NCBI GenBank assembly: GCA_000165345.1
Contig: CM000436.1
Coordinates: forward strand, 672,001-736,000
Length of the DNA stretch: 64,000 nt
Direction of reading: 5' to 3'
Both the position numbers and the translations under genes were made by a program. The notes below the pieces were generated by a model. That model had not been told where the DNA came from and ran no database searches. It saw only the letters and a program-made list of their open reading frames with translations. Shown here piece after piece: positions 2,629 to 63,182 of the stretch. How positions within the stretch are numbered: position 1 is the stretch's first letter; each line of letters begins with the position of its first letter.

Positions 2629-2662
2629 GGCGCCGTAGCCGTTTATGAGTAGATGGCGCCAA
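2629..2662. promoter_or_regulatory. Pair of GGCGCC (E2F-like) motifs 26 nt apart in a divergent promoter
   Basis: Read directly: taGGCGCCgtagccgtttatgagtagaTGGCGCCAAcgg (cores at 2629-2634 and 2655-2660), with TGCATG at 2608-2613. The pair lies between the ATG at 2332 (minus) and the ATG at 2741 (plus). Confidence 0.45.
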
Positions 2663-2740
2663 CGGTACTAGCTGAAAGAGTAAGTATATATTTTAAAATG
2701 AAAGGAAAGGAAAAGGGTTCGTAAGAATGAATGATTGGAG

Positions 2741-5700
2741 ATGATCGATCCATTGGGAATCGGGAAAATAATCAATGATAAGTTTGCTCAAATTGGGGAA
2801 AATGTGTTAGGAACAGTTATTGATCAAATTGTGGACAATTCAAGTGCTCACTTAAGCAGTTTGAATGATTTCCAGTCGGTAAGTTTGTGTGCGATTCATC
2901 GAAATAGCAAAATTTATTATTTTATACTTAGTCCTCAATTATGAAGCTTGTACGTAAAGTTGCAGGGTCAAAGTTTTTAAACAAACAGCCAATAGTTGAA
3001 GTTGAGCCAAATATTTATGCAGTAAGGGACGAACAATCGGGTATATATAAATCTGTTCGTGACTCTAGGAGTTTGGGAGTTCTGACAGTCTCTATTGAGA
3101 GAGCAATTATCTCACCTATGGGATTTGATCGTAATATTCGGAATTTTATTACTAAAGAAAATGCAGAATGGGTTTTTGAATTGGCTTTGCAAGGCCAAAT
3201 GCTTGTAAGCCAACCTGTAAGCACTAAAGACTTTATATTGGAGATTCCAGTTAATAGTCCTATGCTTTTGTCCCCAACTAAGAGCTATGGGAATACTTCT
3301 TTAGCTTTTCTGGATGAGAAGCATGAATCAAGGCCAAGTTTTGGAGTTGAAAGTAGGAACTCAAGCGCAGAGAGAGAAAAGGAAAAGGTTTCTGGAGTAG
3401 GTGCCAGAGAGGTTTTCTTTAATTTCAAAGAATCTTTCCAAGTCACTGATATCTCTTCTGATATGAATTTGGATCTGATTTGTAGAGTTCCAATACAATG
3501 TAAACTTACAATAAATCAAAAATTTAACGAAGAAATTGTGGATGAAGATTGCTACTACTCTAAAAACTCTGGATCTATTTTTGTGAATGAATGTGATGAG
3601 GATTCTTCTCTTGTATCAGAAAACATTACTTCTACTAGCTCAGCCAATGCAGATTCTATTTCAAATTTGGGTTCCAACCCTCCAACAAATTTAAACCATT
3701 CTGTTAGTTTACGAATTAACCAAGAACAGAACAATTCATCTGGGACATCTTTTAAGCAGTATAAGATTATTAGAATTGAAAGAAATAAGCCAAACTGTAA
3801 AGAAATATTTGATAAACCGGATGGCGACAATCGCCCTTCTTCTCAGGAAATCCCCTCTCAAGATCAAGAATGGGAAGTCTTATATGAATGTATCCATTTC
3901 GGAAAGGTTACTATTCCAATTTCCTCTGTTTTTCAAGACAAACTTGCCGAACTACCCGTCTTGGACTATTCATTCTACAAAAATTCAACGTTTTATAAGG
4001 CAAATGAGAATCTAGTTTCTGTGTTTTGGAAATCAAGAAACACCAATTGTACTCAAGGCCATGAGAGTAATCTTTTGAAAAGCAATACTGTGGAAGAATG
4101 GACTTTGATTCATGGCAAAAAGGCGGACTCCTGTGATTCAATTGTTGTTAATAGGCCAAATGATTCAAACTTAAAAGATAGCCGAGCATTTCTAAAAGAT
4201 ATAGATCATGAAAGAGAGCCAAAATTAAGGTCCAGATTCAAAAGTGAGAGTAGAATGCATGATGGTTTAATCTCTTCTGGGAATGAAAAAAATGAAAGCA
4301 ATTTTTGTGAATATCAAAATAGAGTTTATAGTGATGAAAGCTCTCAATTTGAGGTCGGATCGAATTTCAAGCATTTAAATTGGTACCATTTATACCCAAG
4401 AACTAGTGAAATGGTTAAATATGTCAGGCCAGTGCCAGGAATCACAGAATACGGGCTTTCAAATCCAATAAAAACTTTAGGATTTATTCAGATCGGACTA
4501 AATTTTGAGACAGAGTGCTGTTCTAAGATTAGCCTTTTAACTAGCTCCTATTTGAGTATGGTAACTGAGAAGCCTATCACAAGGTGGATCCTTCCTTCAG
4601 GGTTTGAGCCACAGTATTTTCAGATGTATGCTGAAAGTTTAAAAATGTTACTAGAGCATTATCCGAGATGGATACCCAAATTCTTCTTCTTACTGAACTT
4701 CAGAATTCCGAGATCTAGGTTTGATAGGGTAATGATTTCCTTATTTTGGGCAATAATTACGTTTGGAGCTTTCAAGGCTAACAGTTTTTTCTTTTTTTCA
4801 TGGATTTTTATGGTTATCCTCCCATTATTAATCTCTTTAACATATAGATTTGGGTCGCAGATTGCTTCTAGAATCCATCAAGACTTCCTTACCAGAATTA
4901 ATATTGAAGAACAAAAGAGAAAGAGTATAACAAGTGCTCTCTCGCAAAAAGGTAATGCTAATATTAAACAGAAAAGTAATATTAGTCAAAATAATAAGAC
5001 GATGAATCTGATAAACTCTACATCTGGAAATATCTGGAAGATGTTCCAGCCTATACTAAATATTAAATATCACTCATCATTAATGATAGGCGATGGAGAC
5101 TTTATTGAGGAGAATATAGATGTAAAACCATTAAATAATGGCACAGGAAAAGAAAAGAAGGATTCTTCCTTTACCAAAATTGTGGATGAAATCTGTGAAA
5201 AGGACTTTTCTAATCTCATTCCCAAAGAAGTATACTTTGGTGATAAAGTAACAAGCAGAGAATACTGTACACAATACGATCTATCCAATGGGGACGGATA
5301 TATATGTTTGGCTAGAACATTAAATAACTCATTGTTAGGGAATAAGGAGAAAGGTAGAGAGGAAGAACTGAGAAGATTGAATTTATCGAACAATGATGCA
5401 TCAAATTTATCTCCACAGTTTGAAAAGCAAAAGTGGGAAAGAGCCCAAGAACATAAAGAAGATTTGAAAACAGAAAAATCAATGGAAGACAAAAATGATG
5501 AGGCAAGGTTTCGACAAAACCTACAAGGAAGTGGAGGAATTGTAGAGACCCCATTTGGAGAGCTAAGATTGGGTCTCAAAATTCCTTATGATAATAAGGT
5601 TGTATCTATTTTCTTTGATGATCAAGATTTGGAGCCTATTCAAACTCAGCTTTCTAACCTATTGGCAATAGTAGAACTTGTTCAGCAATCATTTGCAAGC

Positions 5701-6894
5701 TTTTCTACGCTTCTGATGAAGCTTAAGAACTCCCTTAATTTCGAGGATCCTCTACTTCCTTTTTTAACTTTGTCAATTCTTGTTATTCTTACTATTATAC
5801 TGAATCTGGGTCTCTATTTATTTAATCTTATCATGGGGAACCAGAAAATGGCATTCTTATTAAGAGGATTTCTTCTTATTAAGTTTATTCGTTGGGTTAT
5901 AATGAAGGATCCATTCAATAACGTTCAACTGGAGATATTCAATAAGAAACAAAGAATCGATCCAGACATTTTTGGTCAAAATCGTATTATTAAACCTCTT
6001 TTTAACAGATACTTCAAGCTAATAAGTTCTGAAGACCAAAACATGCTAATTCTTTTAAGCAGTTTGGAAATATACGACTACTACCCAGATAGATTTGTAC
6101 ATAGACAAGGAAATCTATGTAAGCCTGATGACTTAACAGAAAGAAACAAAGAGAAAAGACGAGGAGTTACTGAACCCATCCGAATTTTATCCATTAATAT
6201 GGAAGAGTATTTATTTTTCTACGTAGTAAAGTTTACATGTATCTATGTGCTCTTACTGGGTTCCTTCATTAATACTCTACAGTACATTTTTACTAGTAAA
6301 TTTTCGGCCACCTTTGCGAGGATATTACTTCTTTGGTGGTATTCTATTCCAGATATTAGAGAAATTCAGCATCGTTGCATCGCATCTACCCAGCTGATAG
6401 GAAATCTTGATGATTTACTCAACGATAATGAAGAAAATCCAATACACTTTAAAGTCATAAACGGAAATAGTTACGGTATTGGAGAGAACAAAAAGGCCGA
6501 AGAAAGCAGACCTGAGGCTTCTGGAACCAAAGCAGATCTCTTTTTGAAACAATTCTATTTTGGAAAGAATTCTAATTATATCAAAAAGAGCACTATCACT
6601 ACAAGTTCGATGAGCCAAGGAGAACAACTGGATCAAGAATCTAGTGCACTGAGTAGATCATTGGGAAGCTTACCTAGTAAAAGCAAATATTCTGAAACAG
6701 GTACACCATCAGCAACCTCTAGCAAAAAAAGCCTAATTGAATATATACTCCCAATTAACAAAGAGCAAAATTCAAATGTGAGGCAGGAATCTGATTCAAA
6801 GAGTGAGAAGAACAACACGCAATCTAGCTATGAGGTACTTGAGAGCTTGTTAGAAGGAATCTACCCAATTAATAAGTCTAAAAAACAAGATTAA
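2741..6894 (+). CDS. Large multi-pass membrane protein (~1360 aa), two exons; function unassigned
   Basis: ORF 2735..2944 (first ATG at 2741) ends its coding sense at a GTAAGT donor and joins ORF 2941..6894 in frame through a 53-nt intron (...NDFQS|SSIMKLVRK...). Hydrophobic segments include AIITFGAFKANSFFFFSWIFMVILPLLISL, LTLSILVILTIILNLGLYLFNLI and FFYVVKFTCIYVLLLGSFINTL. The stretch LSNLLAIVELVQQSFASFSTLLMKLKNSLNFEDPLLPF followed by a hairpin loosely resembles reticulon-homology or PRT_C-type hairpin regions (weak recollection). Confidence 0.7.
2879..2931 (+). other. Intron (53 nt, phase 0)
   Basis: Donor cag tcg|gtaagt at 2879 and acceptor ttatacttag| ending at 2931. Exon 1 (2741-2878) is a whole number of codons, and exon 2 starts at 2932 in the frame of ORF 2941. 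Confidence 0.6.
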
Positions 6895-7162
6895 AAGGAT
6901 TAAATATTAATAAAGATGTTTAAAATTTCTTACTATATAAATTACGCATAACTGCTAAGTTCCAATAGATTAATTATTTGGAATTAAACTAAATATTTAA
7001 TTTTAACAATCGTTTGAATTGTAAAATTTCCTTTCAGTGAACATTTCTGTATAGAAGTAATAATGAGCTCGACCAATTCATAATCAGTGCAAATGAAGGA
7101 AATATTGTTATGAATTTAACTAAAGAAACGGATATTCAGTTAAATAAAATTTGTCTATACTG

Positions 7163-7423
7163 CTAATCATTACAAATTTTTTGATTATATGCCAAATTAG
7201 AAGAGAAAATTGACTTTGAAATCCACCTCCAGTAAATAAAGTAACAAAATACAATTATTAGAGCCATAAAAAGACCTGAAAAATACCATTTCTGCTTTTC
7301 TTCTTCATATGCTAAAAGGAAAAGCAAAGATATATAGATTACACAAGTTATTATGTAAGCCACTGCCACCCAAAATTTACTATATACTGGAATAGTTCCT
7401 TTAAGTTTGAATTGTGAACTCAT
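7163..7423 (-). CDS. Possible small two-TM membrane protein (86 aa)
   Basis: The ORF track starts at TTG (7441). The first ATG at 7423 gives MSSQFKLKGTIPVYSKFWVAVAYIITCVIYISLLFLLAYEEEKQKWYFSGLFMALIIVFCYFIYW... with two clear hydrophobic helices. No recognisable family, and a short ORF could be chance in AT-rich DNA. Confidence 0.35.
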   Translation of the reverse strand: MSSQFKLKGTIPVYSKFWVAVAYIITCVIYISLLFLLAYEEEKQKWYFSGLFMALIIVFCYFIYWRWISKSIFSSNLAYNQKICND

Positions 7424-7566
7424 AACGTTATAATTCTTCAAATTTTACGCAAAGAAAGGTTATTTGGGGCCCTTAATAGTGGAATAGTATGCTTGTAACT
7501 ATTTTCGTGTAACAAACTTCGGTAATGTAATAAATGGAGTAACCAAATTTAGTTTAGAAACCATTC

Positions 7567-7717
7567 AACTCTGATGATGGAATAATCTTTTAGACGTTAC
7601 AGGCTCCTTAACTATAAATTTGTATTAAAAAAAATGAAATAATGTCGAAGTATGATAGATGATTATCTCTAGCCTTGAATTGTTAATTTTTGTTAAAATT
7701 GATTACCTGCTGAAGTT
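7567..7717 (+). ncRNA. Weak box C/D snoRNA-like candidate
   Basis: TGATGA (C-box-like) lies at 7572-7577, one nt after AACT (7567-7570). CTGA (D-box-like) lies at 7710-7713, immediately followed by AGTT (7714-7717), which can pair with AACT. The element sits in a 1.1-kb gene-free interval. Against it: the C box is preceded by C rather than a purine, the length (~150 nt) is high, and no guide or target was identified. Confidence 0.12.
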
Positions 7718-8211
7718 AAATATTTTATTTAAAGTTACTATTCTTTCTGAAAATTTTCTATCCAATAAACTATTTCGCTTACACTCGTTTCAAATAAGCC
7801 AGCGATTTAGATTAAAAAATATATATTCATTAGATATAATTACTTAAGTTTTACAGTAAGTACTCTTAATCTTGTAAGCTTTAATCTCAAATGTAGTTCT
7901 CTTCAAATTTCTATATTAAAGAATAAATTTGCATTTAAATATAGAATAAAAATATATTTATATTTGTTAAAGAAATGTGTGTTCATATATGCAATATTCT
8001 TTTGAAAAAATTGTGCATTTACAACTGGATAAGCTATTTCGATTTAGAAAAGGAAATGCAATTCAATTAATTCAAACGAAAATATGGATCTAAAATTGCA
8101 ACTTATCAGATATAAACTTTACACAGTTGTAACATATACCACCACAATATACTAGTTGCTTTCACTAACAAATTACCAACCACCTTTTCTTTGAAAATAT
8201 TTTATACTTAA

Positions 8212-8220
8212 TTGGCGGGA
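8212..8220 (+). promoter_or_regulatory. E2F-like TTGGCGGGA element upstream of the HRD1-like gene
   Basis: Read directly: aaTTGGCGGGAtgaacTGGCGGtac, about 310 nt upstream of the ATG at 8529. It resembles the canonical E2F core TTTSSCGC and its variants. No functional evidence. Confidence 0.3.
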
Positions 8221-8528
8221 TGAACTGGCGGTACTTTTAATGAATATTTGGATAAAAAGAGTTGAGAGTATTTAGGTTAAAATAAGGCAGTAAGAACAAG
8301 GCTTATCTGATTTTTTTAAAAAAATATTGATATACTAATAAGATTAGACTACGCTTTGGCTGAATTACAGATTAGCCAAAACTCATCAGTTGTGTAATCG
8401 TATTAATTTAAAATAAAGCTGGATCATGAAAAGGCATTGTTAAGGTCTGTATGAAGTTCTTGCTATAAAGATACTATATTTTTAGGAAAGAACACGAATA
8501 GAACATTGAGAGTACGAAAAGAGTGAAA

Positions 8529-10415
8529 ATGTCTCCTATTACATTGAAGCAATATGTTTTGCTTAGTTTCGGGCTACTTTTGGGGCTTTTTGTACATTTA
8601 TTAAGTGTATACGATTTTTACTTTTACCACATAATCATGCACATAACTATAACCAAAGCGTCCACCATGATAATTACAAATGCAGGTTTATTGACTTTAT
8701 ACTTTTTGGGTAAGGTTATTTTGAATATGTTTGTGGGAAGATTAAGAGATATTGAACTGGAAGAAATCATTGATCAAGGGCGAATGTTTTTATTAGATAC
8801 AATCTTTTTTTTGTTATTTAGTAGCCCAACAATAGATAATATAGAAGTTGGAGCAATGGTCCTTTCAAGATACATTACTCTTATTTTGGTTTTAAAGCTT
8901 TTACATTTAATTTCCCATATTCGAATTAACCACATGTTTGAATTAGACAGACCAAAAACTACTGCAATTGTTAGAATGGCAGCTTTGCTTAATATTCTCC
9001 TGATTATTGACATAAGTTTAGTTTTCAAGTATTATGGCCTATTGTCAAAAGATTCTACTCTGAGGTTGTGGGTATTTTTCGAGAGTGTTTCTTTGCTTGT
9101 TTCATGTAGCACTTCTATTGGTAAATACCTCGTTCATGTTGTAGATTTGAAGCTCCAAGCCATTCAATTATTAATGAGACAAGAGGAGGATGGAACCCCT
9201 GAACAAGGAAATACTCATTCTTCGGGAATGCAAGCTCATAACTTTGTATGGTCGAATAAGAATGCTATATTATTTTATTTGGAGGTGTTTGGCGATATAT
9301 GCTCTTTAATTACTTACCTTCTCTTCATTATTCTCTTCCTTGTGCTAAATCCTTCCAGAATTCCATTATATATTATGGGAGATATCTTCCACGTCTTAAA
9401 AGCTTTGTACAGCAAGCTATCATCATTCAGGAGATATAGAAAGCTCACAAAAAATATTGAAACCAGACTTCAGGAAGCTACACTTGAAGAGATTGAGAGA
9501 ATTGATACTTGTATTGTTTGTAGGGACACTTTGTATATTGGCTCAAAAAAGATTCCTTGCGGTCATGTATTCCATCTGGATTGTCTAAAATCTTGGTTTA
9601 TTCAACAGCAAACTTGTCCAATATGTAGGGCTCCCATAACTATCAGAGATGAAGAGCCTGAACATTCAGCAACTACTGCAGAAGAAGATAACAACTCTCC
9701 ACAAATACCAGAGGACCAGGATGAAACTAATGATATTAAAGATCCCACTTCTTCAGACCAAGCGAAACCCAACATCAATTCAGAGCCTACTAGTGCACCA
9801 TCATCTTCAGCGTTTAATTCAAATGAATCCGGGAGCTCAACTGATGTTAGCTCTGACAGTTTTAAGAAAATCTTCAAGAACTGGATAGTAAGTGAGCATA
9901 AAGCTAAACCTGTTGAAGAAACAACATCAACAAGAATGGCGAAGGACTTGAAAGAAACCAAATTTCAGATATCGAAACACCCTTTGTTTAAAAGCAAGCG
10001 TGATGACTTATATAGAAAGGTTTCAAAAGCTGCAAATAGAGGGGATCATATAAATAGCCTTCCTCCTCAGTTACTTTCACTACAACCTCAAATTTTACTA
10101 GAATTAAATAAAAATTTGGAACAGAGAACATTTGGAAGTGAATATGGAAGTCAAGAGTTTTCTGAAATGATGAGCAAAATGTATAAGAAAAATGCAGATA
10201 TTTGGTTGAATATGGTTAGCGAGCTCATCAAAGCTAAAGAACAAAATTGTATCCAACATTCGGTACCAATTGAACGAAAAAGCAGTATTCACATACAAGG
10301 AGAAAGTTTATCTAATATGTATGAAAGTAGTTCTAGGGCAGACCCCTTGAGAAATCTAATGGATGCTGTCAATAATCAGCTTAACGAAACAAAAAATATT
10401 AATAAGGCTGCTTGA
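8529..10415 (+). CDS. HRD1: ERAD E3 ubiquitin ligase, HRD1/synoviolin-like (multi-TM N-terminus plus RING-H2)
   Basis: The N-terminal half has about 6 hydrophobic helices. The RING-H2 at nt 9510-9626 reads CIVCRDTLYIGSKKIPCGHVFHLDCLKSWFIQQQTCPICRAPI, with the spacing and the W/QQ-TCP motif typical of HRD1. The C-terminus is low-complexity. The track start at 8523 is GTG, and the ATG is at 8529. Confidence 0.85.
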   Translation: MSPITLKQYVLLSFGLLLGLFVHLLSVYDFYFYHIIMHITITKASTMIITNAGLLTLYFLGKVILNMFVGRLRDIELEEIIDQGRMFLLDTIFFLLFSSPTIDNIEVGAMVLSRYITLILVLKLLHLISHIRINHMFELDRPKTTAIVRMAALLNILLIIDISLVFKYYGLLSKDSTLRLWVFFESVSLLVSCSTSIGKYLVHVVDLKLQAIQLLMRQEEDGTPEQGNTHSSGMQAHNFVWSNKNAILFYLEVFGDICSLITYLLFIILFLVLNPSRIPLYIMGDIFHVLKALYSKLSSFRRYRKLTKNIETRLQEATLEEIERIDTCIVCRDTLYIGSKKIPCGHVFHLDCLKSWFIQQQTCPICRAPITIRDEEPEHSATTAEEDNNSPQIPEDQDETNDIKDPTSSDQAKPNINSEPTSAPSSSAFNSNESGSSTDVSSDSFKKIFKNWIVSEHKAKPVEETTSTRMAKDLKETKFQISKHPLFKSKRDDLYRKVSKAANRGDHINSLPPQLLSLQPQILLELNKNLEQRTFGSEYGSQEFSEMMSKMYKKNADIWLNMVSELIKAKEQNCIQHSVPIERKSSIHIQGESLSNMYESSSRADPLRNLMDAVNNQLNETKNINKAA

Positions 10416-10508
10416 TTAATTGTAGATGAAAGTTGTGATTAGAATATTGAGATAGAGAGATATAGGTAGTTTATATTATAATATCTGAATAAAGAAGTGT
10501 ATTCATAT

Positions 10509-11726: not shown

Positions 11727-11778
11727 CTTACATAAAACAAACGCTCTTAGCAAGCAAGCTTTACAAAATAAAAACTAC

Positions 11779-11787
11779 TTGGCGCCA
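11779..11787. promoter_or_regulatory. E2F-like TTGGCGCCA motif in a 97-nt tandem-gene spacer
   Basis: Read directly at 11779-11787 (GGCGCC core 11781-11786), between the stop of the SHMT-like gene (11824) and the ATG at 11726. Confidence 0.45.
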
Positions 11788-13398: not shown

Positions 13399-14229
13399 TT
13401 AGAAAATGATTCTAAAAATAATTACTAATATTAGAAAAGCAGTTAAATAAAGAACTATTTTAGTTATTCTTCTCCTTCGATCTCTTTCAGAAATTACATT
13501 AATCTCGTGTAGTAGGTGAAAACTGTCTGTATTAATTTCTGTTTCCTTAATTTTATCTTGAAAAGTATCAATAGTAACTTGTTCAGAGGCAATCTCATTT
13601 AATAGAATATTCTGAATACTCATTAACTCTTTCGTGGACTCCTTTAATTTAATTAACTCTGCAAAACAATGATTGGTTAATATTGGGCAATAAATGAGTA
13701 AAATAAAACCAAACCTCTTCGTATAATAATGTCACTTACCTTGGTTTTGTTCAAATAAGAGTTGTTTTTCCAATTCTTTAAAATCTGGTAAAGGCATATA
13801 TTGGGAGGTATGGACGAAAGAAGAAACAGAAGAGACAGAGGTATTTGATAATGAATTCTTTTCTAATTGGTTTCTTAAACAATTATCAACTTCATATCTT
13901 TCTAAGGAGAAAATAGTCTGAAAATGAAATAATAGATTCTCAAATAACAGTTTATAATGAGGATTTATATTGTTTTCCTTTTCCAATAACATAATACAGT
14001 ACTTAAAAAGATGTTGAGTTTCTTTAATTTTGAGATCTCTCTCAATATAACAACTTTCATTGTTTAATGAGTTAATATTTTCTCCAAAGTTTAATTCTTT
14101 CAAGTAATCTATATTTTCCTTAACCTGCTTAAAACATTTGCAAACGATTTCGTCCATTCCTTCTTTAATTAGAGTACTTTTGAAATTTTCAAAGTCACTT
14201 TTCAATGACAAGCAATTACCATAATTCAT
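13399..14229 (-). CDS. Tail-anchored Qc-SNARE (syntaxin-6/8/Tlg1-like), two exons
   Basis: ORFs 13732..14229 and 13399..13623 join through an 81-nt intron to give ...LFEQNQ|ELIKLKESTKELMSIQNILLNEIASEQVTIDTFQDKIKETEINTDS...RRRRITKIVLYLTAFLILVIIFRIIF. E-x3-Q-x3-I-D-x-F-x3-I-x2-T matches the zero-layer region of Qc SNAREs (compare syntaxin 6 ELEEQAVMLEDFSHELEST). There is a single C-terminal TM anchor. Confidence 0.7.
13659..13739 (-). other. Intron (81 nt, phase 1)
   Basis: On the minus strand the donor is caa g|gtaagt (GT at 13739-13738) and the acceptor is ttgttttgcag| (AG at 13660-13659). The splice restores the frame into ORF 13399..13623 (G+AG = Glu, then LIKLKESTKELM). Confidence 0.7.
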
Positions 14230-14520
14230 TTCACAATTTAGATTTAGAGTAGTTCTTTTATTAATTACTTAAAGAATTTATTGCATTTTATTTCTTGTTT
14301 AATTTAATTATGAGTAATATAGCAATCTCTCCAAACATTCAAACTCTCCAATTCTGACTATCAGGTTTAAACACATACAAAATAGCCTGAAGGATTTCTA
14401 AAGTCTAAACTTGAATAACTTATCTAACTTAATCAGATTTTAACTTTTCTGACTTTTTCACTGGCTATCCATGTATTTTGTGAGGTACAGATAAATTTTG
14501 CGAGCTTAGAAAATGATGCT

Positions 14521-14530
14521 TTGGCGCCAA
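14521..14530. promoter_or_regulatory. Perfect palindromic E2F-like site TTGGCGCCAA in a divergent promoter
   Basis: Read directly at 14521-14530, in the 641-nt spacer between the divergent SNARE gene (ATG 14229, minus) and the acidic-protein gene (ATG 14871, plus). Confidence 0.45.
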
Positions 14531-14870
14531 TCGCTTTGCTAATACTGCATTTAGGAGTTGAAAAATTAAATAGTTAAAATTATTTAGACAAGAGCCTGTT
14601 GTTGAAGCTGAAAGGTATTTGATTATCTTAGACCGAATTTTCCTTTTCGTTCCTCTACAAATTACTGGAATAATAAGTCTGCATGCAATTTACATCTTTT
14701 GCGGGAACTGAAAGCAAAATTGTAGAAAAACAAAATTTACTGCTAAAAATAAGAATTAAACAAACTTCTCATTTTAAAGCACTAAAAGAATCAAATAGAG
14801 CGAACTGACCTACATAAATGTGTGTGCTTATTTATGAACCCCGAGTTTGAAAATCTATAAAATTAATCTT

Positions 14871-15290
14871 ATGGAAACAATGCAAAATTGGGAAATTATA
14901 GACGACTACGATATTGAGAAGGAAAATGAAAAGGTTAAAAATAGTGATATCTTATCAGATTTACTAAGTGATTATGAACTTGACAACAGCTTTATGAAAA
15001 AGGATATTAATCAGCAGCTTGAGGAAATTAATATATTGATTAAAGAAGTTAATCAAGAAAAGGTAGAATTATTGAATTCATTTCCATCTTGTTCATTAGC
15101 AATTATTAAGAGCTTAACCAGAGGTGATGAAATTGATGAAGAAAATATGGAGATTGATCAGATGTCACTCTCAAGCAGCGAGATCAACTCTAGCAATGAT
15201 TCACCTTTGTTTGAAACACGAGTAAATATCGACCTGCATCAGAGTCTTACGGACTCTCCAGGAAGCATGAATATATCAGACTTTCTTTAG
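14871..15290 (+). CDS. Small acidic hypothetical protein (139 aa)
   Basis: The track ORF begins at TTG (14847). The first ATG at 14871 gives METMQNWEIIDDYDIEKENEKV... The protein is D/E-rich with a predicted coiled segment. No family recognised. Confidence 0.5.
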   Translation: METMQNWEIIDDYDIEKENEKVKNSDILSDLLSDYELDNSFMKKDINQQLEEINILIKEVNQEKVELLNSFPSCSLAIIKSLTRGDEIDEENMEIDQMSLSSSEINSSNDSPLFETRVNIDLHQSLTDSPGSMNISDFL

Positions 15291-15358
15291 CCATGAAAAA
15301 AATGTAAATATTCAAAAGAAAGAAATTAACAATTCACAAACGAGAGTAAGCAAACGCA

Positions 15359-16696
15359 CTAATACTTATCTACGATAGAAACAAATTCAAACGATGAGGC
15401 AAACTTTCGCACTGTTTGCCTGATATTCTCTATTGCTGGAGAGGCCTTAATATTAGAAACAAACTCTGCAAGAGTCTCCCCATCCTTTTGAATATCTCGA
15501 GCAGTAGTTAAAACTTCTACAATTATCCTTGAAACGAATTTGAAATCATCCAACTCCATCCCTCTGCTCGCAAGGGCTGCAGTTCCAAGTCTGACGCCAC
15601 TGCAATTCATAGTTCTCCCATCACAAGGTAAAGAACTTCTACTTGTTGAAATTTCGCATACTTCTAGTGCTTTCTCAGCCTTAGCCCCAGAAATGTTCAA
15701 TGATCTTGTATCTATTAGAATTTTGTGGGAATCAGTTCCATTTGTAAGAATCTTGATTCCAGACTCCTCGAGCAATTTGCAAAGCAATTGAGAGCTTTCT
15801 AGCACTCTACTTGCATATTTAACCCAAGAAGCAGAAACTACTTGTTTCAGTTGGAAACAAAGGGCTGCAACTTGGTTGAAATGAATACTAGACTGAATTT
15901 CTTTAGAAACTGACTCATCAATCTTAACTCTGATCTTGGACTCTACGTCCTTTCTGTAAAATATTATTGCTGACCTTGGTCCTCTTAATGTCTTGTGAGA
16001 CGTTGTTGTAATGAAATCTGCGTAGTCTTTGGGTGACGGGTACTTCCCTGCAACCACCAAACCAGAGTAGTGAGCGATATCTACCATCAGGTAGGCCTTC
16101 ACTTTGTCGCAGATATCCCTAAACCTCTTAAAGTTGATCATTCTAGGATACCCACTAGCTCCTGCTATTATCATCTTTGGTCTAAATAGTATTGCATTTT
16201 CTTCCAACTTATCGTAATCTATCACTCCTTCTAAATCAGTTACATAAGGGAGTGACTCAAAATAGTGAGATGAACAGTTAACTCTCTTCAAATTTGTATA
16301 GTGTCCGTGAGTCAGGTGGCCTCCATGTTGTAATGACAATCCCATTATTCTATCATTAGGTTTTAATACTGCATTTAATACTGCAAAATTTGCAGGAGAG
16401 CCACTATGAGGCTTTACATTAGCACCCCATACTTCAGGATCTAGTCCATATGCTTTTAAGGCTCTTTCATTTGTGAGCTCTAATAGTTCTTGTGCAGAAG
16501 TTGAGTTTAATTCCATATTTTTATCATTATTAAACATTGAGAATGTACTTGACAAGCTGTCCAAGACTCCCTTCGATACAAAGTTTTCGGATGCTATCAT
16601 TTCTAGTCCATTAATCTGTCTATCATATTCTTCATTGATTAGCTCATACATAATGGGATCCAGCTCTTTTAATGATTTTTCCTGTAAAAATACCAT
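15359..16696 (-). CDS. SHMT: Serine hydroxymethyltransferase (PLP-binding core intact; trans-acting loops degenerate)
   Basis: Family signatures: GLEMIASENF, HSGSPANFAV, LQHGGHLTHG (nt ~16304-16327), MVDIAHYSGL, TTTSHKTLRGPR (Lys235 codon at 15992-15994) and CSGVRLGTAALASRG. However, the NKYSEG-PG-RYYGG loop is replaced by FSMFNNDKNMELNSTS (nt ~16499-16549), and VFPGLQGGPHNH is replaced by VSKEIQSSIHFN (nt ~15869-15913). Confidence 0.9.
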   Translation of the reverse strand: MVFLQEKSLKELDPIMYELINEEYDRQINGLEMIASENFVSKGVLDSLSSTFSMFNNDKNMELNSTSAQELLELTNERALKAYGLDPEVWGANVKPHSGSPANFAVLNAVLKPNDRIMGLSLQHGGHLTHGHYTNLKRVNCSSHYFESLPYVTDLEGVIDYDKLEENAILFRPKMIIAGASGYPRMINFKRFRDICDKVKAYLMVDIAHYSGLVVAGKYPSPKDYADFITTTSHKTLRGPRSAIIFYRKDVESKIRVKIDESVSKEIQSSIHFNQVAALCFQLKQVVSASWVKYASRVLESSQLLCKLLEESGIKILTNGTDSHKILIDTRSLNISGAKAEKALEVCEISTSRSSLPCDGRTMNCSGVRLGTAALASRGMELDDFKFVSRIIVEVLTTARDIQKDGETLAEFVSNIKASPAIENIRQTVRKFASSFEFVSIVDKY

Positions 16697-17104
16697 TTCT
16701 TAAGTGATTATTTATTACAGTTCTGTATTACACGGTCTTTATATTCCTAAATCTTTAGTAGCTTCACAAATTTTTATTTCTAGCGTTTAAACAAAGCTAT
16801 ATTCGAATTTCAACTTTGTTTTTTATATTTTGGTAATTGTGTTCAATTATTAAACTTTTTTGTCCAAATAAAGTACATGCGCCATGTGTGGGTAATTTAT
16901 CAGTAAATCGTTGAATGAATGCTAACCCAGAAATTTTTCTAATTTATAAAAATATTATTCTCTAAAAATTACTATGATCTCTGAATAAATTTCGCTCTTT
17001 AGATTTCTCAAGATAACTAGGACAGTACTAATCTACCAAAGATAGAATTTTATTACAAATCAATTATTATTGTCCTACTAGAAAAACCGGAAATGTATTG
17101 AAAA

Positions 17105-20706: not shown

Positions 20707-20733
20707 TTTATTCTTTAAACTTCAATTATTTCT

Positions 20734-32291: not shown

Positions 32292-32297
32292 GGCGCC
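32292..32297. promoter_or_regulatory. GGCGCC (E2F-like core) in a divergent promoter
   Basis: Read directly (tttGGGCGCCtga), 203 nt upstream of the giant gene ATG (32089, minus) and ~500 nt upstream of the ATG at 32793 (plus). Confidence 0.4.
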
Positions 32298-32792
32298 TGA
32301 ATCTTCAAAATTTCTTTGAATACATGCAAGTAAAAATAGAATTCAAAACTAATGGGATACTATAGTAACACTATCATAAAATATAAAGGTTTAAATTTCA
32401 TGAAAATTTTGAAGAAGTGTCATTTAATTTATGACGACAATCGTCTCATTAACCCAAATGATATTGTTGGATCTTTTTCTCAACTAGTTTAATAATAGAA
32501 TATTCAAGGATTAGCTTAAAAAGCTGAAATTAATTTAAATATTTAAAGCTTAGACTTTATTAGATACAAATTTATTGTTTTTATGCTTAAAACTTGACAT
32601 TATGTTAATGTAGTTTCTGTATTTGATTCTTTAAATCACTAGAAAAAAAAATAAAAATAAATTAATGTCAGATGTGATATGCCGCTTGCGGTATTTTAAA
32701 TTGATTGTAGGATTTTATATAAGTAACTTTCGATATCCAAGTATAAGTGAAAAGGAGTGAAGTATTCACATACAAAACCAAATTATTGTATA

Positions 32793-38405: not shown

Positions 38406-38624
38406 AACTAATTAGATTTTAATGAAATTAAATTATGATTTTAGAAATAAAACAAGCAAAAAAATAAATTAAAACTTTAAGATTTTAACTTATTCGTATT
38501 TTATTTGAAAAATAAAAATGTTTTGAAGGCGCTGTAATATAATTCAGTTAAAATTAAAACTAAATGAATTTGTAAATAGGTTAATCAAAGAGATAAGATA
38601 TGATTTTGGAGATTGCTCATAAAT

Positions 38625-46222: not shown

Positions 46223-46228
46223 GGCGCC
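46223..46228. promoter_or_regulatory. GGCGCC (E2F-like core) in a divergent promoter
   Basis: Read directly (aatgtGGCGCCtatt), in the 249-nt spacer between the M16 peptidase ATG (46140, minus) and the SET-gene ATG (46390, plus). A second partial site, aaaGGCGCAcc, lies at ~46329-46336. Confidence 0.45.
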
Positions 46229-54196: not shown

Positions 54197-54520
54197 TTTA
54201 AATCTATTTGTATTACCCCACAATAGATAATTACAGGAAACGTAAAGGGTTTTCTCTAATTTTGTTTGTCGAATCCTTTGATTTTTTTGTTGACCTTTTA
54301 AGTGGATTAAATGGCCTTTTAATTTTAATAGACATATAACTTTACACTAATTCCAGATTTGTCCACATGAAAATTATTGTCAATAATGCCAATAATAAAT
54401 TTACACAAAGAAAAAATAGATAGCTTTTATATATGCACCGAATTAATTCTTTGATGCCTTATTAATCCTTGAAATGATTTCTACTGATTGAAATGGCTTT
54501 TTGTTTCGAGAAAAAAGTGG

Positions 54521-55468: not shown

Positions 55469-55469
55469 G

Positions 55470-56573
55470 TTATTCAGGGCCAAATATGTATGTTAGTATG
55501 CAGTAGGTAACTAATTCTGACTCAAAATTGCGAAAAGTGTACTTATTTTTATTTAAATCAGCTATTACCAGCTTATCGTCAGATAATTCAAGTTCTACTG
55601 ATTTTTTTGTTTTGTTGTTTTGGCAATTAATTTTTATTTTTTCTTTACAGGAGAAGTAAATTATTCCTATTTTACTCCCTGGAATAAAAGATTCTGAATC
55701 TTTTCCTATAATAAACCCGGTATTTGCAGGCTCTATTGATAAAATATAAATAGATTTTGATAAGATATTTAGATTTCTCCCAAGCTTGGCATTCAGCTCG
55801 TTTGGAAGATATTCTATTGCGTTAAAATAAACAAGCATTTCATCTTGAATCTCGTCGCTTTCTAATACAGCATATCTGAAATTTGAACTAAAACTGGATT
55901 TTGAAACTGAATTATTGGTCAATAAACCTTGATAATCCATCTTAATTAAAGCTTTGTTAATTTTATTTCTCATCTCTTCACCGAACCAAGTCGATTTCAT
56001 AGTTATTCCAAATTCATTAAGTTCATATAACATTTGATTGTCAATGATATTCACTATATCTTTAATTATATATGGAGATGCCCACCTAGAAATATCGCAA
56101 GTTTTAGAGCTGTAATTGTTTTTCACTTCATCCATAATTTTATCAACACAGTAGTAAATAATTGATTCTGAAAATACCGTAATCATCAGGTTGTACTCCG
56201 AAATATCTAATTCATTCTCTTTGTAAATATTATTCGATTTTCCAGTACATATTTCCTTGAGAGAATTGTATGCAAGAAATGCCTTTTTGATTATCATAGG
56301 TAATAACATATAAATAAAGTTTTTTTTCAAATATTTATCGATCAAGTTCCCAATTTTGTCTTCTTTTGATCTACTAAAATTTTTTATCCCAATAAAGCCT
56401 TCAATCTTTGAATTACAACTTGAATCTTGATGGTAGGAGCTGCATCTTGTCCCCGTCCTTTTTTGAACTCTCTCCATTATTTTATTTCGGGTTTCACAAC
56501 CGTTAAGCAATTTAACAACCAATTGGAATATCTTCTCAGTTTCCTCATCACTCCATACCATTAATTTATCCAT
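55470..56573 (-). CDS. Hypothetical protein (367 aa); the N-terminus is weakly Myb/SANT-like
   Basis: The ATG at 56573 gives MDKLMVWSDEETEKIFQLVVKLL..., and W-[ST]-x-EE-x2-[LIF] recalls a Myb/SANT first helix. The rest is unassigned. Confidence 0.6.
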   Translation of the reverse strand: MDKLMVWSDEETEKIFQLVVKLLNGCETRNKIMERVQKRTGTRCSSYHQDSSCNSKIEGFIGIKNFSRSKEDKIGNLIDKYLKKNFIYMLLPMIIKKAFLAYNSLKEICTGKSNNIYKENELDISEYNLMITVFSESIIYYCVDKIMDEVKNNYSSKTCDISRWASPYIIKDIVNIIDNQMLYELNEFGITMKSTWFGEEMRNKINKALIKMDYQGLLTNNSVSKSSFSSNFRYAVLESDEIQDEMLVYFNAIEYLPNELNAKLGRNLNILSKSIYILSIEPANTGFIIGKDSESFIPGSKIGIIYFSCKEKIKINCQNNKTKKSVELELSDDKLVIADLNKNKYTFRNFESELVTYCILTYIFGPE

Positions 56574-56869
56574 GATTTTTAACTTAAATAAAATATGTTA
56601 GCATGTGCGAATGTAAGGAAAAATTTGTTAAATTATATTTCAAGACTTCGAATATTAAAAATTTCCCTCATAAGCGCCTGTATTGTTTGCATGCGGACTG
56701 ATTTTTCAACTATATTACATGTAAAATTGAAAATTGTTACTAAGAACCTCATTCATGGGATTTCTAAATAAAAAAAGACTTAAAGAAACAAGCGAAAATG
56801 AGTAAGTAAATTATTTGGATAATTAGTGATTATTATTACTCGTACAGAAAAAGAGGCATTTGTAATAAT

Positions 56870-57785
56870 ATGACTCATATTAAGTCAAAAATAACAGGAA
56901 TGATAATTGAAACTAGTAATCAGGCAGGAAACAACTCACCAATGTCTCTAGAAGATCCAGATGAACCATCTCCTTCACCAATAAATCCAATTACTCTTAA
57001 GCACACTCTTAGACTTGCTTCAAGAGTAAGTATTTCGAATAATGCTAAGGTAAGTCAAAAAAATTTAGTTGACGCGTTTATTTTAATTATTAAAATGATA
57101 AAACTTTTAGATTGAAGAAAAATATTTTGAAGAATATCCTAATTCATCTTTGCTTACAGAACTTGGCGAGACTTTGAAGGCGATTTCAGTCAATGATTTT
57201 TCATTTTCTCCATCTCCAACAAAGTTATCTAAACTACCAGAAGATACAGAAGCTAAATTTATAAAGTCAATATTACCTAAAAGTAATTATAGAGAAAAGG
57301 TAAAGAAGTCTCAAAAGTTGTGCAAAAAAAATAATAGAAGGTCAAAGCTTGAGGAGGAAAAAACAAAGAAACATATCAGAAAAGATTCGCTAAATGAAAA
57401 CATTGAATGTTGCGAAATATTTGATTTAAATGTTCAAGAAACTGCTGGCGAAGTTGAAATCCAAAGTTATGAGAGTATATTGGGTCAAACTATAAATAAA
57501 TCTCAGTCTACCGATGGAAAAGAAACAAATGATTCAGAAATTAAAAAATCCACTCCATTATCATTCGGGAGTAATGAATCATTCAGATATTCGAGATGGA
57601 TAAAAAAAAATAGTATTAAAAATTTCATTAGTAGGTATATACCAAGGTTCTTGATTCCTGCATTTAAGGCAATCGAAAATTTAAGGATAAAATTTGCAAT
57701 TCCAACAAAAATAGTAGAATATCGACGAGAAGTAGGGCAAAAAAAAGAAAAAGTAAAAAAGAAAATAAAGCTCAAGAGGAAATAA
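56870..57785 (+). CDS. Hypothetical basic (Lys-rich) protein, two exons
   Basis: ORF 56870..57115 and ORF 57150..57785 join in frame. The acceptor aaacttttag| ends at 57110, and exon 2 from 57111 reads IEEKYFEEYPNSSLLTELGE... into ORF 57150. Two phase-0 GTAAGT donors are available (57026 or 57050). Confidence 0.55.
57050..57110 (+). other. Intron (61 nt; an alternative donor at 57026 gives 85 nt), phase 0
   Basis: The donors are gct aag|gtaagt (57050) and tca aga|gtaagt (57026), with a shared acceptor ending at 57110. Both keep the reading frame, and I cannot choose between them from sequence alone. Confidence 0.5.
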
Positions 57786-57920
57786 TTTAGGACAAGAACC
57801 CGCCTATAGTTGGAAATCGAAGTCCTTAATAACTGATAATTAGAATAGAAGAGGCTGAAACTATTACATAGTTTGCTGATAGCAAAGAATTCCAACTATT
57901 TAGTTTATCCAGCTTTATGT

Positions 57921-61847
<3,927 letters not shown>

Positions 61848-62053
61848 ATTCACTCACTAGTTAATACCTTTGGTTTTTAGAGAGTCTTTAAGTGCTTTTT
61901 TAATTTTAATATTTTCTTATGTTACTCAGACTAGTAAAATAAACATTGCGCGAATTTTTTTGTTTTCTGTAACTAATGAGGGCCAAAAGCACTGGAGGCT
62001 GAATATAACAAAAGAGTTTAAGATAAAGTAAAAAAATAGAGTGGGTTCAAGTA

Positions 62054-63011
62054 ATGTACCTGGATAAGAAAATACTATATTGGTGTACAATTCCCGTTAC
62101 CATATTAGTTTTTTGTGGAGTTATTTTAAGAACAATTCTTCAAACATCCTCGCAAAAAAAGAAAAAGAAAAGGTTGCCTTTTAAGAATGAGAAAAATTTG
62201 AATGATTGCTTGATGTCCACTCAACGCGTGTCTTTGAGAAATCAAGAGTTCCAAAATCACCTCAATAGGAGTGCATTAATAAGGTCTAGAAGATTTTTAA
62301 TTCCAGAAGATTCATTTTTGAAAAGAAAGCTGTTTTATTGTGAACTAGAGAGTGGATATTTTCATAACTCTCCAGAATCTCCAAGCCCATTGGCTGCACT
62401 CTCAAACCCAGGTATGTTTACGTGCTTAATTCTTATGACTTCATAATTTTTCAACAATTTAGACCACTCTGCACTTACAGATATGATGAAAAACCAATTT
62501 GGGTTTCTGATTTTGAATGGAGGGATGGGATACTTAGTCAACACATTATTTTCGGGATTTCTAGTTGTTTATATTCCTTTCCCACTTTCTTATTCATTTA
62601 AGGGAATGCTTCAAAGAGGAATAGAATCAAATCCAAATATAAGCGCCTCATTTTTGTCAGCTCTATCATTTTATTTCATTGCATTACTCTGTTGTGGAGA
62701 GGTTGTTCATCTTTTCCTTTCTATTATTGGGTTTGAAGGAGTTTCAGGTCCGCAAATTGATCTACCAATGATGAATCAGCAAGGTAAGTAAATCATAAAA
62801 TTTTCTTAAAAAAAAAAATTTGCCGTAGTTTCTCCTCTGGGGAATCAAACAGATTACTCTAAGCTCTTTAAAGAAGAGGTAGAGTCATTACAGATTACTG
62901 TAAGTTTTTGATAGATAATTGCAAGGCATTTTAACTTAAATTTACCTACAGCCAATAGAATGCGCGCTAGACCAAATGGAAGAGATGGCAATAAAACTGC
63001 TAGAAATTTGA
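62054..63011 (+). CDS. EMC3: ER membrane protein complex subunit 3 (EMC3/TMEM111 family), four exons
   Basis: The spliced product aligns along its length with EMC3 as recalled. ALIRSRRFLIPEDSFLKRKLFY..ESGYF resembles VLIRSRVL...IPKQSFLTRKYYF..EDGFF. P|D|MMKNQFGFLILNGGMGYLVNTLFSGFLVVYIPFPLSYSFKGMLQRGIE resembles TDMMKGN...[57 protein letters not shown] resembles [24 protein letters not shown]. The junction residues fit the alignment. The stop TGA is at 63009-63011. Confidence 0.85.
62412..62480 (+). other. EMC3 intron 1 (69 nt, phase 1)
   Basis: Donor cca g|gtatgt at 62412 and acceptor gcacttacag| ending at 62480. G+AT gives Asp, then ATG ATG AAA of ORF 62483. Confidence 0.8.
62784..62828 (+). 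other. EMC3 intron 2 (45 nt, phase 1)
   Basis: Donor caa g|gtaagt at 62784 and acceptor ttgccgtag| ending at 62828. G+TT gives Val, then [23 protein letters not shown]. Confidence 0.7.
62900..62951 (+). other. EMC3 intron 3 (52 nt, phase 0)
   Basis: Donor att act|gtaagt at 62900 and acceptor tttacctacag| ending at 62951. The last exon reads [19 protein letters not shown]. Confidence 0.7.
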
Positions 63012-63176
63012 GTTAACGTGTACACGGATTGAATTGCTCTATTTTTCGTGTGCTAGTTAACGAATTTTTTAATTGCTATAAAATACTAACCTATTTCTGT
63101 TTTAACCCCGTTGAATTTTAAAAGCTTCCAAATAACTTTTGAATTGGTGTTTTTTGGATTCAATTGCATGTATAAT

Positions 63177-63182
63177 GGCGCC
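63177..63182. promoter_or_regulatory. GGCGCC core followed by a C-run (atGGCGCCCCCCaaaa) in an intergenic spacer
   Basis: Read directly, in the ~890-nt spacer between the EMC3 stop (63011) and the next ATG (63902). Confidence 0.3.

What the first reader, a model, noticed from the sequence alone, without database searches (positions are those of the whole stretch)
2629..63182. GGCGCC (E2F-like TGGCGCCA family) appears confined to intergenic spacers, especially divergent promoters
I found the hexamer at 2629, 2655, 11781, 14523 (perfect palindrome TTGGCGCCAA), 32292, 46223 and 63177, all intergenic. Relaxed versions lie at 8212 (TTGGCGGGA), 16878 (TGCGCCA), 38528 (AGGCGCT) and 56673 (AGCGCC). 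In DNA with roughly 15% G and 15% C, fewer than one GGCGCC is expected by chance in 64 kb. I noticed none inside coding sequence while checking the GCGC-containing sites I could spot, but that scan was not exhaustive. TGGCGCCA-type motifs have been reported as over-represented upstream elements in Cryptosporidium. Their placement here supports both that taxonomic guess and a shared regulatory input for several genes: the SHMT-B neighbour, the SNARE, the M16 peptidase, the SET methyltransferase and the giant gene.
Basis: partly seen in the sequence, partly recalled or inferred. Interest (0 to 1): 0.5.

Follow-up and report, generated by a model that had tools for sequence, protein, structure and literature searches.

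The report
E2F-type promoter motif in Cryptosporidium spacers
The rare GGCGCC sites between genes in this Cryptosporidium parvum chromosome 8 stretch are real, far above chance and conserved across species, but they are the E2F-type upstream motif already described as the commonest promoter motif in this parasite, so the finding is correct and ordinary.

Summary
GGCGCC occurs exactly 7 times, at the stated coordinates, and all 7 lie outside coding sequence. About 0.1 would be expected in the 9-10 kb of non-coding DNA. In an unbiased ranking it is the most over-represented hexamer there (P=4e-11).

The window is C. parvum chromosome 8, around cgd8_2720/2730. In orthologous loci of four other species the motif is again purely intergenic: chipmunk genotype I 5:0, C. 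ubiquitum 7:0, C. canis 5:0, C. muris 3:0. The sites sit in the same spacers, mostly at aligned positions. 20 of 25 orthologous instances keep an E2F-class core. Four of nine window sites are invariant, against a 3% background.

The best explanation is binding sites for the parasite's E2F/DP factors in promoter and bidirectional-promoter spacers. This matches published work (Bankier 2003; Oberstaller 2013; Xiao 2025 ATAC-seq). Binding itself has never been shown.

Three sub-claims weaken:
- Absence from coding DNA is just what chance predicts (0.7 expected).
- The preference for divergent spacers is not significant.
- The motif marks about 2,400 genes with no common expression pattern, so it implies no specific co-regulation.

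Novelty: already known. The cross-species site conservation is a modest addition.

The parts
2629..2634 (.). GGCGCC core, divergent spacer between the 265-aa gene (ATG 2332, minus strand) and the 1366-aa membrane protein gene (ATG 2740, plus strand)
   Evidence: Kept in chipmunk genotype I and C. ubiquitum; AGCGCC in C. canis.
2655..2660 (.). TGGCGCCA, second site in the same divergent spacer, 85 bp upstream of ATG 2740
   Evidence: Flank gatGGCGCCaacggtactag is nearly invariant in four species; C. ubiquitum has GGCGCT.
2616..2621 (.). Relaxed third site (AGCGCG) in the same spacer
   Evidence: Aligned to GGCGCG in C. ubiquitum and C. canis.
8214..8219 (+). GGCGGG (TTGGCGGGA), 310 bp upstream of the synoviolin-like RING gene (ATG 8529), tandem spacer
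   Evidence: The orthologous position carries full GGCGCC in chipmunk genotype I, C. ubiquitum and C. canis, and C. muris has a GGCGCC in the same spacer.
11781..11786 (.). TGGCGCCA in the 97-bp tandem spacer between the SHMT-B stop (11824) and the 405-aa gene (ATG 11726, minus strand)
   Evidence: The hexamer is invariant in four species inside a spacer that is otherwise 28% invariant. C. muris has GGCGCC and C. bovis has TTTGGCGC in the same spacer.
14521..14530 (.). TTGGCGCCAA palindrome in the divergent spacer between the 165-aa gene (ATG 14229, minus strand) and the 139-aa gene (ATG 14871, plus strand)
   Evidence: TGGCGCCAA is invariant in four species.
16878..16884 (+). Relaxed site TGCGCCA, 182 bp upstream of SHMT-A (ATG 16696, minus strand)
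   Evidence: Sits in an invariant block caTGCGCCatgtgtggg in four species.
32292..32297 (.). GGCGCC in the divergent spacer between the 3488-aa gene (ATG 32089, minus strand) and the 428-aa gene (ATG 32793, plus strand)
   Evidence: Identical site and flank in C. ubiquitum at the same distance (202 against 203 bp); GGCGGT in C. canis.
38527..38533 (+). Relaxed site AGGCGCT in the divergent spacer between the zf-HIT gene and the FAD_binding_3 gene
   Evidence: Kept in C. canis, absent in C. ubiquitum. This is the weakest member.
46223..46228 (.). GGCGCC in the 249-bp divergent spacer between M16 peptidase cgd8_2720 (ATG 46140, minus strand) and SET1-like cgd8_2730 (ATG 46390, plus strand)
   Evidence: tGGCGCCt is invariant in C. 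ubiquitum and C. canis; C. felis has only AGCGCCG nearby.
56673..56678 (+). Relaxed site AGCGCC in the divergent spacer between the 367-aa gene (ATG 56573, minus strand) and the 274-aa gene
   Evidence: tttccctcataAGCGCC is invariant in four species, and a TGCATG lies 15 nt downstream.
57799..57804 (-). CCCGCC (GGCGGG on the minus strand), 117 bp upstream of the SNF2/ISWI gene (ATG 57921), in a 135-bp tandem spacer.
   Evidence: Invariant in chipmunk genotype I, C. ubiquitum and C. canis at the same distance, 118-121 bp.
61947..61953 (.). Relaxed site TGCGCGA, about 100 bp upstream of the EMC3-like gene (ATG 62054)
   Evidence: Aligned to TCGCGCGA in C. canis at the same distance; the same in chipmunk genotype I; lost in C. 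ubiquitum.
63177..63182 (.). GGCGCC, 720 bp upstream of the ATG (63902) of a gene of about 4,180 aa that runs off the window, downstream of the EMC3-like gene
   Evidence: Kept in C. ubiquitum at 715 bp; GGCGGC in chipmunk genotype I and GTCGCC in C. canis.

Best explanation
The GGCGCC sites, their GGCGGG variants and their half-site variants of the TTTGGCGC type are cis-regulatory elements in the 5' spacers of C. parvum genes. They are most likely bound by the parasite's E2F/DP winged-helix heterodimers.

Because the core is palindromic and the spacers are only 100-700 bp, one site can serve both genes of a divergent pair. It can also sit in the short gap between tandem genes as an internal promoter.

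**Shown here:** the excess, the exclusive placement in promoter-bearing spacers, and purifying selection on the sites across species.

**Taken from the literature:** the organism encodes E2F and DP proteins, and open-chromatin peaks at 5' ends are dominated by this motif.

**Inferred, not shown by anyone:** E2F/DP actually binds these sites and activates transcription.
For: **Excess**
- 7 observed against about 0.1 expected in non-coding DNA; the top-ranked hexamer.
- Control palindromes of the same composition behave oppositely. Pooled non-coding:coding counts are 1:10 for GGGCCC and 1:3 for GCCGGC.

**Replication in other species**
- GGCGCC non-coding:coding is 5:0 in chipmunk genotype I, 7:0 in C. 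ubiquitum, 5:0 in C. canis and 3:0 in C. muris.
- GGCGCC or its overlapping neighbour GCGCCA tops the non-coding hexamer ranking in each of those four species.

**Placement**
- Every site in every species lies in a divergent or tandem spacer, that is, one bearing a promoter. None lies in a convergent 3'-3' spacer.

**Purifying selection**
- 20 of 25 orthologous instances keep an E2F-class core, and the 5 exceptions are single-base variants.
- 4 of 9 canonical window sites are fully invariant, against 3.0% of background 6-nt spacer windows (binomial about 9e-5).
- Distances to the ATG are also kept: 203 against 202 bp, 720 against 715 bp, and 117 against 118-121 bp.

**Match to the classical consensus**
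- C. bovis and C. muris carry the classical E2F consensus TTTGGCGC / GCGCCAAA in the same spacers.

**Literature**
- Two to three E2F and two DP genes are present, uniquely among apicomplexans.
- E2F is the top motif in sporozoite ATAC-seq regulatory peaks. More than half of those peaks are bidirectional promoters, and 160 of 201 internal spacers of polycistrons carry the motif.
Against: - No direct binding evidence (EMSA, protein-binding microarray, ChIP, CUT&RUN) exists for any Cryptosporidium E2F/DP protein in the library I could search.
- The T/A-rich flanks of the classical 12-bp E2F site are only partly present. At the 14 half-site flanks, T (or A on the other side) occurs 8 times.
- About half of the promoter-bearing spacers in the window have no canonical site, so the motif is not required for every promoter.
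- The orthologous C. bovis and C. felis spacers lack the full hexamer.
- No transcription start or chromatin data were available for these particular loci.
Confidence: 0.8

Rival explanations
1. The sites are real, selected promoter elements, but a factor other than E2F/DP reads them. Candidates are another GC-box-binding protein or a general promoter or nucleosome-excluding factor. On this view the resemblance to E2F sites is coincidental.
For: The assignment to E2F rests only on motif similarity. The motif is linked to no particular expression pattern, which suits a general promoter element. The classical T/A flanks are imperfect.
Against: The core matches the symmetric [C/G]GCGC[G/C] contacted by conserved E2F and DP residues. 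The variants seen here (GGCGGG, TTTGGCGC) are exactly the classical E2F variants. Cryptosporidium is the only apicomplexan that has both the factors and the motif excess. None of the AP2 domains tested on microarrays was assigned this motif.
Confidence: 0.12
2. The sites act at another level than transcription initiation, for example as RNA elements in UTRs, or as replication or chromatin-boundary elements that happen to lie between genes.
For: The site at 11781 lies in a 97-bp gap that must overlap the SHMT-B 3' UTR. The site at 63177 is 720 bp from the next ATG. Mullapudi et al. did not exclude post-transcriptional roles for upstream motifs.
Against: A palindromic DNA core, no strand preference, absence from 3'-3' spacers in all species examined and coincidence with ATAC-seq peaks at 5' ends genome-wide all point to a DNA-level promoter role.
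Confidence: 0.06
3. Chance or composition: the hexamer count is an artefact of local GC-rich patches, or of codon bias that keeps it out of genes.
For: Absence from coding sequence is fully explained by composition and codon usage (expected 0.7).
Against: Non-coding DNA is more AT-rich than coding DNA (GC 0.26 against 0.33) yet holds all 7 sites, about 70-fold over expectation. The pattern recurs in four other species at aligned positions.
Confidence: 0.01

Closest known systems
C. parvum 'E2F' upstream motif family (Oberstaller et al. 2013 motifs 3 and 4; noted on chromosome 6 by Bankier et al. 2003; written 5'-[A/T][C/G]GCGC[G/C][A/T]-3' in Gunasekera 2025)
   Same: Same organism, same core (GGCGCC, TGGCGCCA, GGCGGG), and the same placement in upstream and bidirectional spacers and in short gaps between tandem genes. 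The window's sites are simply instances of this family.
   Different: Nothing substantive. This analysis adds site-by-site conservation in C. sp. chipmunk genotype I, C. ubiquitum, C. canis and C. muris. The only comparison I found in the papers read was with C. hominis, at 95% spacer identity.
Canonical animal and plant E2F/DP site TTTSGCGC(S), with the E2F4-DP2-DNA structure of Zheng et al. 1999 as cited
   Same: Symmetric CGCGCG/GGCGCC-type core. The variants GGCGGG and TTTGGCGC both occur here. The location is promoter-proximal.
   Different: In the C. parvum group the fully palindromic GGCGCC predominates and the T-tract flank is weak. No Rb-family partner is known in the organism. The target set looks near-global rather than cell-cycle specific.
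ApiAP2 'AP2_1' motif TGCATGCA
   Same: Also a palindromic motif over-represented in C. parvum non-coding DNA. CATGCA ranks fourth in this window's non-coding hexamers and tends to lie near the E2F-type sites.
   Different: It has a different sequence and a different, experimentally shown binder (AP2 domains). It is not confined to non-coding DNA here (12 non-coding against 14 coding).

Membership tests
E2F/DP binding-site motif (C. parvum E2F upstream motif family) | Core sequence [C/G]GCGC[G/C] or GGCGGG | tested here: met
   7 GGCGCC and 2 GGCGGG/CCCGCC in the window.
E2F/DP binding-site motif (C. parvum E2F upstream motif family) | Statistical over-representation in non-coding or upstream DNA | tested here: met
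   7 against 0.10-0.11 expected; ranked first of 1616 hexamers. Replicated in four other species.
E2F/DP binding-site motif (C. parvum E2F upstream motif family) | Location in 5' (promoter-bearing) spacers rather than 3'-3' spacers | tested here: met
   All window sites and all orthologous sites lie in divergent or tandem spacers, and none in convergent ones. Convergent spacers total only 1.1 kb in the window, so the window alone is weak evidence (P(0) about 0.3).
E2F/DP binding-site motif (C. parvum E2F upstream motif family) | T-rich 5' and A-rich 3' flanks (TTTSGCGCSAAA) | tested here: inconclusive
   T/A at the immediate flank in 8 of 14 half-sites. Clear TTGGCGCCAA at 14521. C. muris and C. 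bovis show TTTGGCGC.
E2F/DP binding-site motif (C. parvum E2F upstream motif family) | Evolutionary constraint on the site (functional element) | tested here: met
   20 of 25 orthologous instances retained. 4 of 9 fully invariant against a 3% background.
E2F/DP binding-site motif (C. parvum E2F upstream motif family) | Cognate E2F and DP proteins encoded by the organism | not tested
   Literature only: cgd1_1560, cgd6_1430 (E2F); cgd7_3650, cgd8_1850 (DP).
E2F/DP binding-site motif (C. parvum E2F upstream motif family) | Physical binding by E2F/DP and effect on transcription | not testable with these tools
   No published binding assay found. Genome-wide ATAC-seq enrichment is indirect support.
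   cgd8_2720 is in cluster 4, cgd8_2570 in cluster 50, cgd8_2660 in cluster 72, and cgd8_2550 and cgd8_2600 in cluster 53. Only the 2720 and 2730 gene IDs are verified; the others are inferred from gene order. Genome-wide, E2F clusters show no particular expression pattern.

The most novel reading that the evidence does not exclude
Individual E2F-type sites are positionally conserved across the genus. Two of the spacers keep a site even in the gastric species C. muris.

The form of the site may differ by lineage. The intestinal C. parvum/ubiquitum/canis clade uses the full palindrome GGCGCC. C. bovis and C. felis show only single half-sites (TTTGGCGC, AGCGCC) in the same spacers.

Several sites also abut longer invariant blocks: 14462-14505, 16875-16893, 56662-56678 and 63378-63495. 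These could be composite promoter modules or unannotated small RNAs driven by the E2F site.

If this held genome-wide, it would give a genus-wide map of ancient promoters and a case of change in binding-site architecture (dimer site to half-site).
Probability: 0.3. Interest if true: 0.35.

Novelty: already known. Interest (0 to 1): 0.15.

Why it matters
Cryptosporidium is the only apicomplexan that kept E2F/DP factors, and this motif appears to mark a large share of its promoters. Recognising it helps annotate promoters, bidirectional gene pairs and internal promoters of polycistrons in a parasite where regulatory genetics is hard. For this window it adds nothing beyond published genome-wide analyses. 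The exception is the demonstration that the individual sites are under purifying selection across species that differ by 12-55% at the protein level. That supports function and picks out good targets for mutagenesis, such as the 249-bp cgd8_2720/cgd8_2730 spacer.

Tried and rejected
1. **Coding avoidance.** Dinucleotide shuffles and synonymous-codon shuffles both expect only about 0.7 GGCGCC in 53-54 kb of coding DNA, so zero is uninformative.
2. **Divergent-spacer preference.** 5 of 7 sites fall in 43% of promoter-bearing spacer length (P about 0.12). The preference disappears when the GGCGGG-type sites are added.
3. **Co-expression of the motif-bearing genes.** The traceable genes fall in four different clusters of Oberstaller 2013. 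The stored supplement is truncated, and the gene-ID mapping is inferred from gene order except for cgd8_2720 and cgd8_2730.
4. **Polycistron and ATAC tables of Xiao 2025.** I looked for these loci, but no supplement is held.
5. **Structured RNA at the conserved blocks.** Rfam at gathering thresholds over the whole window, Rfam at E<=1 over 63100-63901, and a tRNA scan all found nothing. RNAalifold on the 63360-63510 block gives a 7-bp hairpin but no covariation, because the block is invariant.
There is only a faint Sec20 hit (E=0.26) on the ORF piece 13399-13731.
7. **C. bovis and C. felis.** They have no full hexamer in 3.1 and 2.3 kb of non-coding DNA, only half-sites. The samples are too small to claim loss.
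Full report
**Observation.** GGCGCC occurs exactly seven times in the 64-kb window, at 2629, 2655, 11781, 14523, 32292, 46223 and 63177. Whole-window dinucleotide shuffles give 0.83, with a maximum of 3 in 100. TTGGCGCCAA at 14521-14530 is a perfect palindrome.

**Gene map and organism.** The window is densely packed with long ORFs on both strands. Pfam identifies these among others:
- two SHMT paralogues
- a synoviolin-like RING ligase
- an Atg3-like protein
- a GMC oxidoreductase
- an M16 peptidase
- a 2244-aa SET/PHD/bromodomain protein
- an ISWI/SNF2 ATPase
- an EMC3-like protein

An exact-sequence look-up places the SHMT-B protein on 1.34-Mb chromosomes of NCBI assemblies. Its names are C. 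parvum Iowa II and related C. parvum entries. The SET gene is cgd8_2730 (CpSET1, chromosome 8, 718,307-725,208, plus strand). The M16 peptidase is cgd8_2720.

NCBI gene calls for the identical record and for orthologous loci refined four boundaries:
- The 1366-aa gene starts at 2740.
- A 274-aa gene with an intron precedes SNF2.
- The EMC3-like gene has a further exon reaching about 63019.
- A gene of about 4,180 aa starts at ATG 63902 and runs off the window.

**Coding versus non-coding.** With either gene map, non-coding DNA is 9.1-10.0 kb (14-16%) and is more AT-rich than coding DNA (GC 0.26 against 0.33). All seven hexamers are non-coding, as are both GGCGGG-type sites (8214 and 57799).
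- Shuffling the non-coding DNA alone gives 0.10 GGCGCC.
- Under a first-order Markov model the expectation is 0.11 (P=3.8e-11).
- GGCGCC ranks first of 1616 hexamers. It is followed by its overlapping neighbours GCGCCA and AGGCGC, and then by CATGCA, the ApiAP2 motif.

Zero sites in coding DNA is what chance predicts. Dinucleotide shuffles give 0.68 (P(0)=0.52) and synonymous-codon shuffles give 0.71 (P(0)=0.48). The 'confinement' is therefore an intergenic excess, not exclusion from genes.

**Spacer classes.**
- Five hexamers lie in four of the eight divergent spacers.
- Two hexamers and both GGCGGG-type sites lie in four of the eleven tandem spacers.
- None lies in the eight convergent spacers, which total only 1.1 kb (and the refined map).

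The divergent preference is not significant (binomial about 0.12). Distances to the nearest ATG range from 55 to 720 bp.

**Related sequences.** Orthologues of three anchor proteins gave syntenic loci from C. sp. chipmunk genotype I, C. ubiquitum, C. canis, C. felis, C. bovis and C. muris.

GGCGCC counts, non-coding:coding:

| Species | Non-coding | Coding |
|---|---|---|
| chipmunk genotype I | 5 | 0 |
| C. ubiquitum | 7 | 0 |
| C. canis | 5 | 0 |
| C. muris | 3 | 0 |
| C. bovis | 0 | 0 |
| C. felis | 0 | 0 |

- Control palindromes of equal composition lie mostly in genes: GGGCCC 1:10 and GCCGGC 1:3.
- GGCGCC or its overlapping neighbour GCGCCA tops the non-coding hexamer ranking independently in chipmunk genotype I, C. 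ubiquitum, C. canis and C. muris.
- In the 21-kb SHMT locus, each of the four intestinal-clade species has exactly five E2F-class cores, in the same four spacers.

**Footprinting.** Spacer alignments show the following:
- The hexamer is invariant at 11781, 14523, 46223 and 57799.
- It is 5/6 conserved at 2629 and 2655, and 4/6 at 32292 and 63177.
- Only 3.0% of 6-nt spacer windows are fully invariant, so 4 of 9 has a binomial probability of about 9e-5.
- 20 of 25 orthologous instances keep an E2F-class core. The five exceptions are single-base variants.
- The relaxed sites at 16878 and 56673 are invariant in four species.
- The relaxed site at 38528 is kept only in C. canis.
- Spacing to the ATG is kept: 203 against 202 bp, 720 against 715 bp, and 117 against 118-121 bp.
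- C. bovis, C. felis and C. muris carry TTTGGCGC/GCGCCAAA-type half-sites in the same spacers. That is the classical E2F consensus.

**Mechanism.** The best explanation is that these are E2F/DP binding sites acting as promoter elements. They would often be bidirectional, because the core is palindromic and the spacers are short.
- Shown here: the excess, the placement and the selection.
- From the literature: 5'-TGGCGCCA-3' / [C/G]GCGC[G/C] and GGCGGG are the most abundant upstream motifs of C. parvum, in 163 of 200 expression clusters covering 2,379 genes.
- From the literature: Cryptosporidium alone among apicomplexans retains E2F and DP genes.
- From the literature: E2F is the top motif in sporozoite ATAC-seq regulatory peaks. 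More than half of those peaks are bidirectional promoters, and 160 of 201 internal spacers of polycistronic transcripts carry the motif.

The 97-bp SHMT-B/405-aa-gene gap (site 11781) and the 135-bp gap upstream of SNF2 (site 57799) fit that last architecture. This is an inference, because I could not retrieve the paper's tables.

Binding by E2F/DP has not been demonstrated experimentally, so a different reader protein remains a live rival. Chance is excluded.

**Co-regulation.** The motif does not define a regulon. E2F-containing clusters peak at all time points. The traceable window genes fall in clusters 4, 50, 72 and 53 (two genes in 53). Apart from cgd8_2720 and cgd8_2730, the gene IDs are inferred from gene order.

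**Verdict.** The phenomenon is already published, so novelty is 'already known' and interest is low. The modest addition is site-level conservation across species much more divergent than the C. parvum/C. hominis pair compared previously, which share 95% spacer identity.

Noticed in passing
window 63378-63495 (EMC3-like gene to giant-gene spacer): A block of about 50 nt, TTAGACATGTAATGCACGCAGTTCTTGTCTTGTCTAACTTAACCACAC, is invariant in C. parvum, chipmunk genotype I and C. ubiquitum, and differs in C. canis only by a 1-nt deletion. A second conserved stretch follows (ATAATACCCCATTAAC..ATCGTGGGATAGTTGGAAT). It lies about 200 bp downstream of the GGCGCC at 63177 and about 400 bp upstream of the giant gene's ATG. 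The C. canis deletion argues against coding. A 7-bp hairpin (UUAGACA/UGUCUAA) is predicted but shows no covariation, and there is no Rfam match. It could be an unannotated small RNA or a 5'-UTR or promoter module.
   Followed up: partly
window 14462-14505: Immediately beside the invariant TGGCGCCAA at 14523, on the side of the 165-aa gene, lies a block of about 45 nt: GCTCGCAAA..TGTACCTCACAAAATACATGGAT. It is almost invariant in four species. The same spacer also holds a conserved TTCCCGCAA (an E2F-like half-site) and AATTGCATGCA.
   Followed up: no
window 16875-16893 and 56662-56693: The relaxed sites sit inside longer invariant strings. These are CATGCGCCATGTGTGGG, and TTTCCCTCATAAGCGCC followed 15 nt later by TGCATG. 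That suggests composite elements rather than isolated weak E2F sites.
   Followed up: no
window-wide; for example 2608, 32323, 56688, 63165: The ApiAP2-type motif TGCATG/CATGCA lies within 60 nt of 4 of the 9 canonical E2F-type sites. Random non-coding positions give an expectation of 1.1 (P about 0.02). The sample is small. CATGCA is also the fourth most over-represented non-coding hexamer.
   Followed up: partly
L008 (C. bovis) and L012 (C. felis), orthologous spacers: Neither locus has a full [CG]GCGC[CG] core in non-coding DNA. They have only half-sites such as TTTGGCGCA, AGGCGCA and AGCGCCG in the same spacers. This may be a lineage difference in site architecture, but only 3.1 and 2.3 kb of spacer were sampled.
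   Followed up: partly
window 32680-32700; L010 8329-8336; L011 8354-8363: A second E2F-class site about 100 bp upstream of the 428-aa gene is CGCGCG in C. ubiquitum and C. canis. In C. parvum it has degenerated to CCGCTTGCGG. This is an example of site decay next to a retained GGCGCC.
   Followed up: no
window 13399-14229: The C. parvum record annotates a 165-aa protein here, while orthologues are annotated at 249-279 aa. In the window, the ORF that follows the in-frame stop (13399-13731) has a faint Sec20 (SNARE) match at E=0.26.
   Followed up: partly
window 6895-8528: This 1.6-kb spacer has no long ORF and no Rfam or tRNA hit, and is unusually long for this compact genome. Its only E2F-class site (8214) is near the downstream RING gene.
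   Followed up: no
Oberstaller 2013 supplement, cluster 72: cgd8_2660 is inferred to be the 428-aa gene beside the 32292 site. It is listed in the same expression cluster as the DP1 gene cgd7_3650, with a low membership of 0.57.
   Followed up: no
L010 13824-16411 (C. ubiquitum): The C. ubiquitum annotation has no gene call where C. parvum and C. canis encode the FAD_binding_3 (UbiH/squalene-epoxidase-like) protein. I treated about 14345-15800 as coding by analogy and did not verify it.
   Followed up: no
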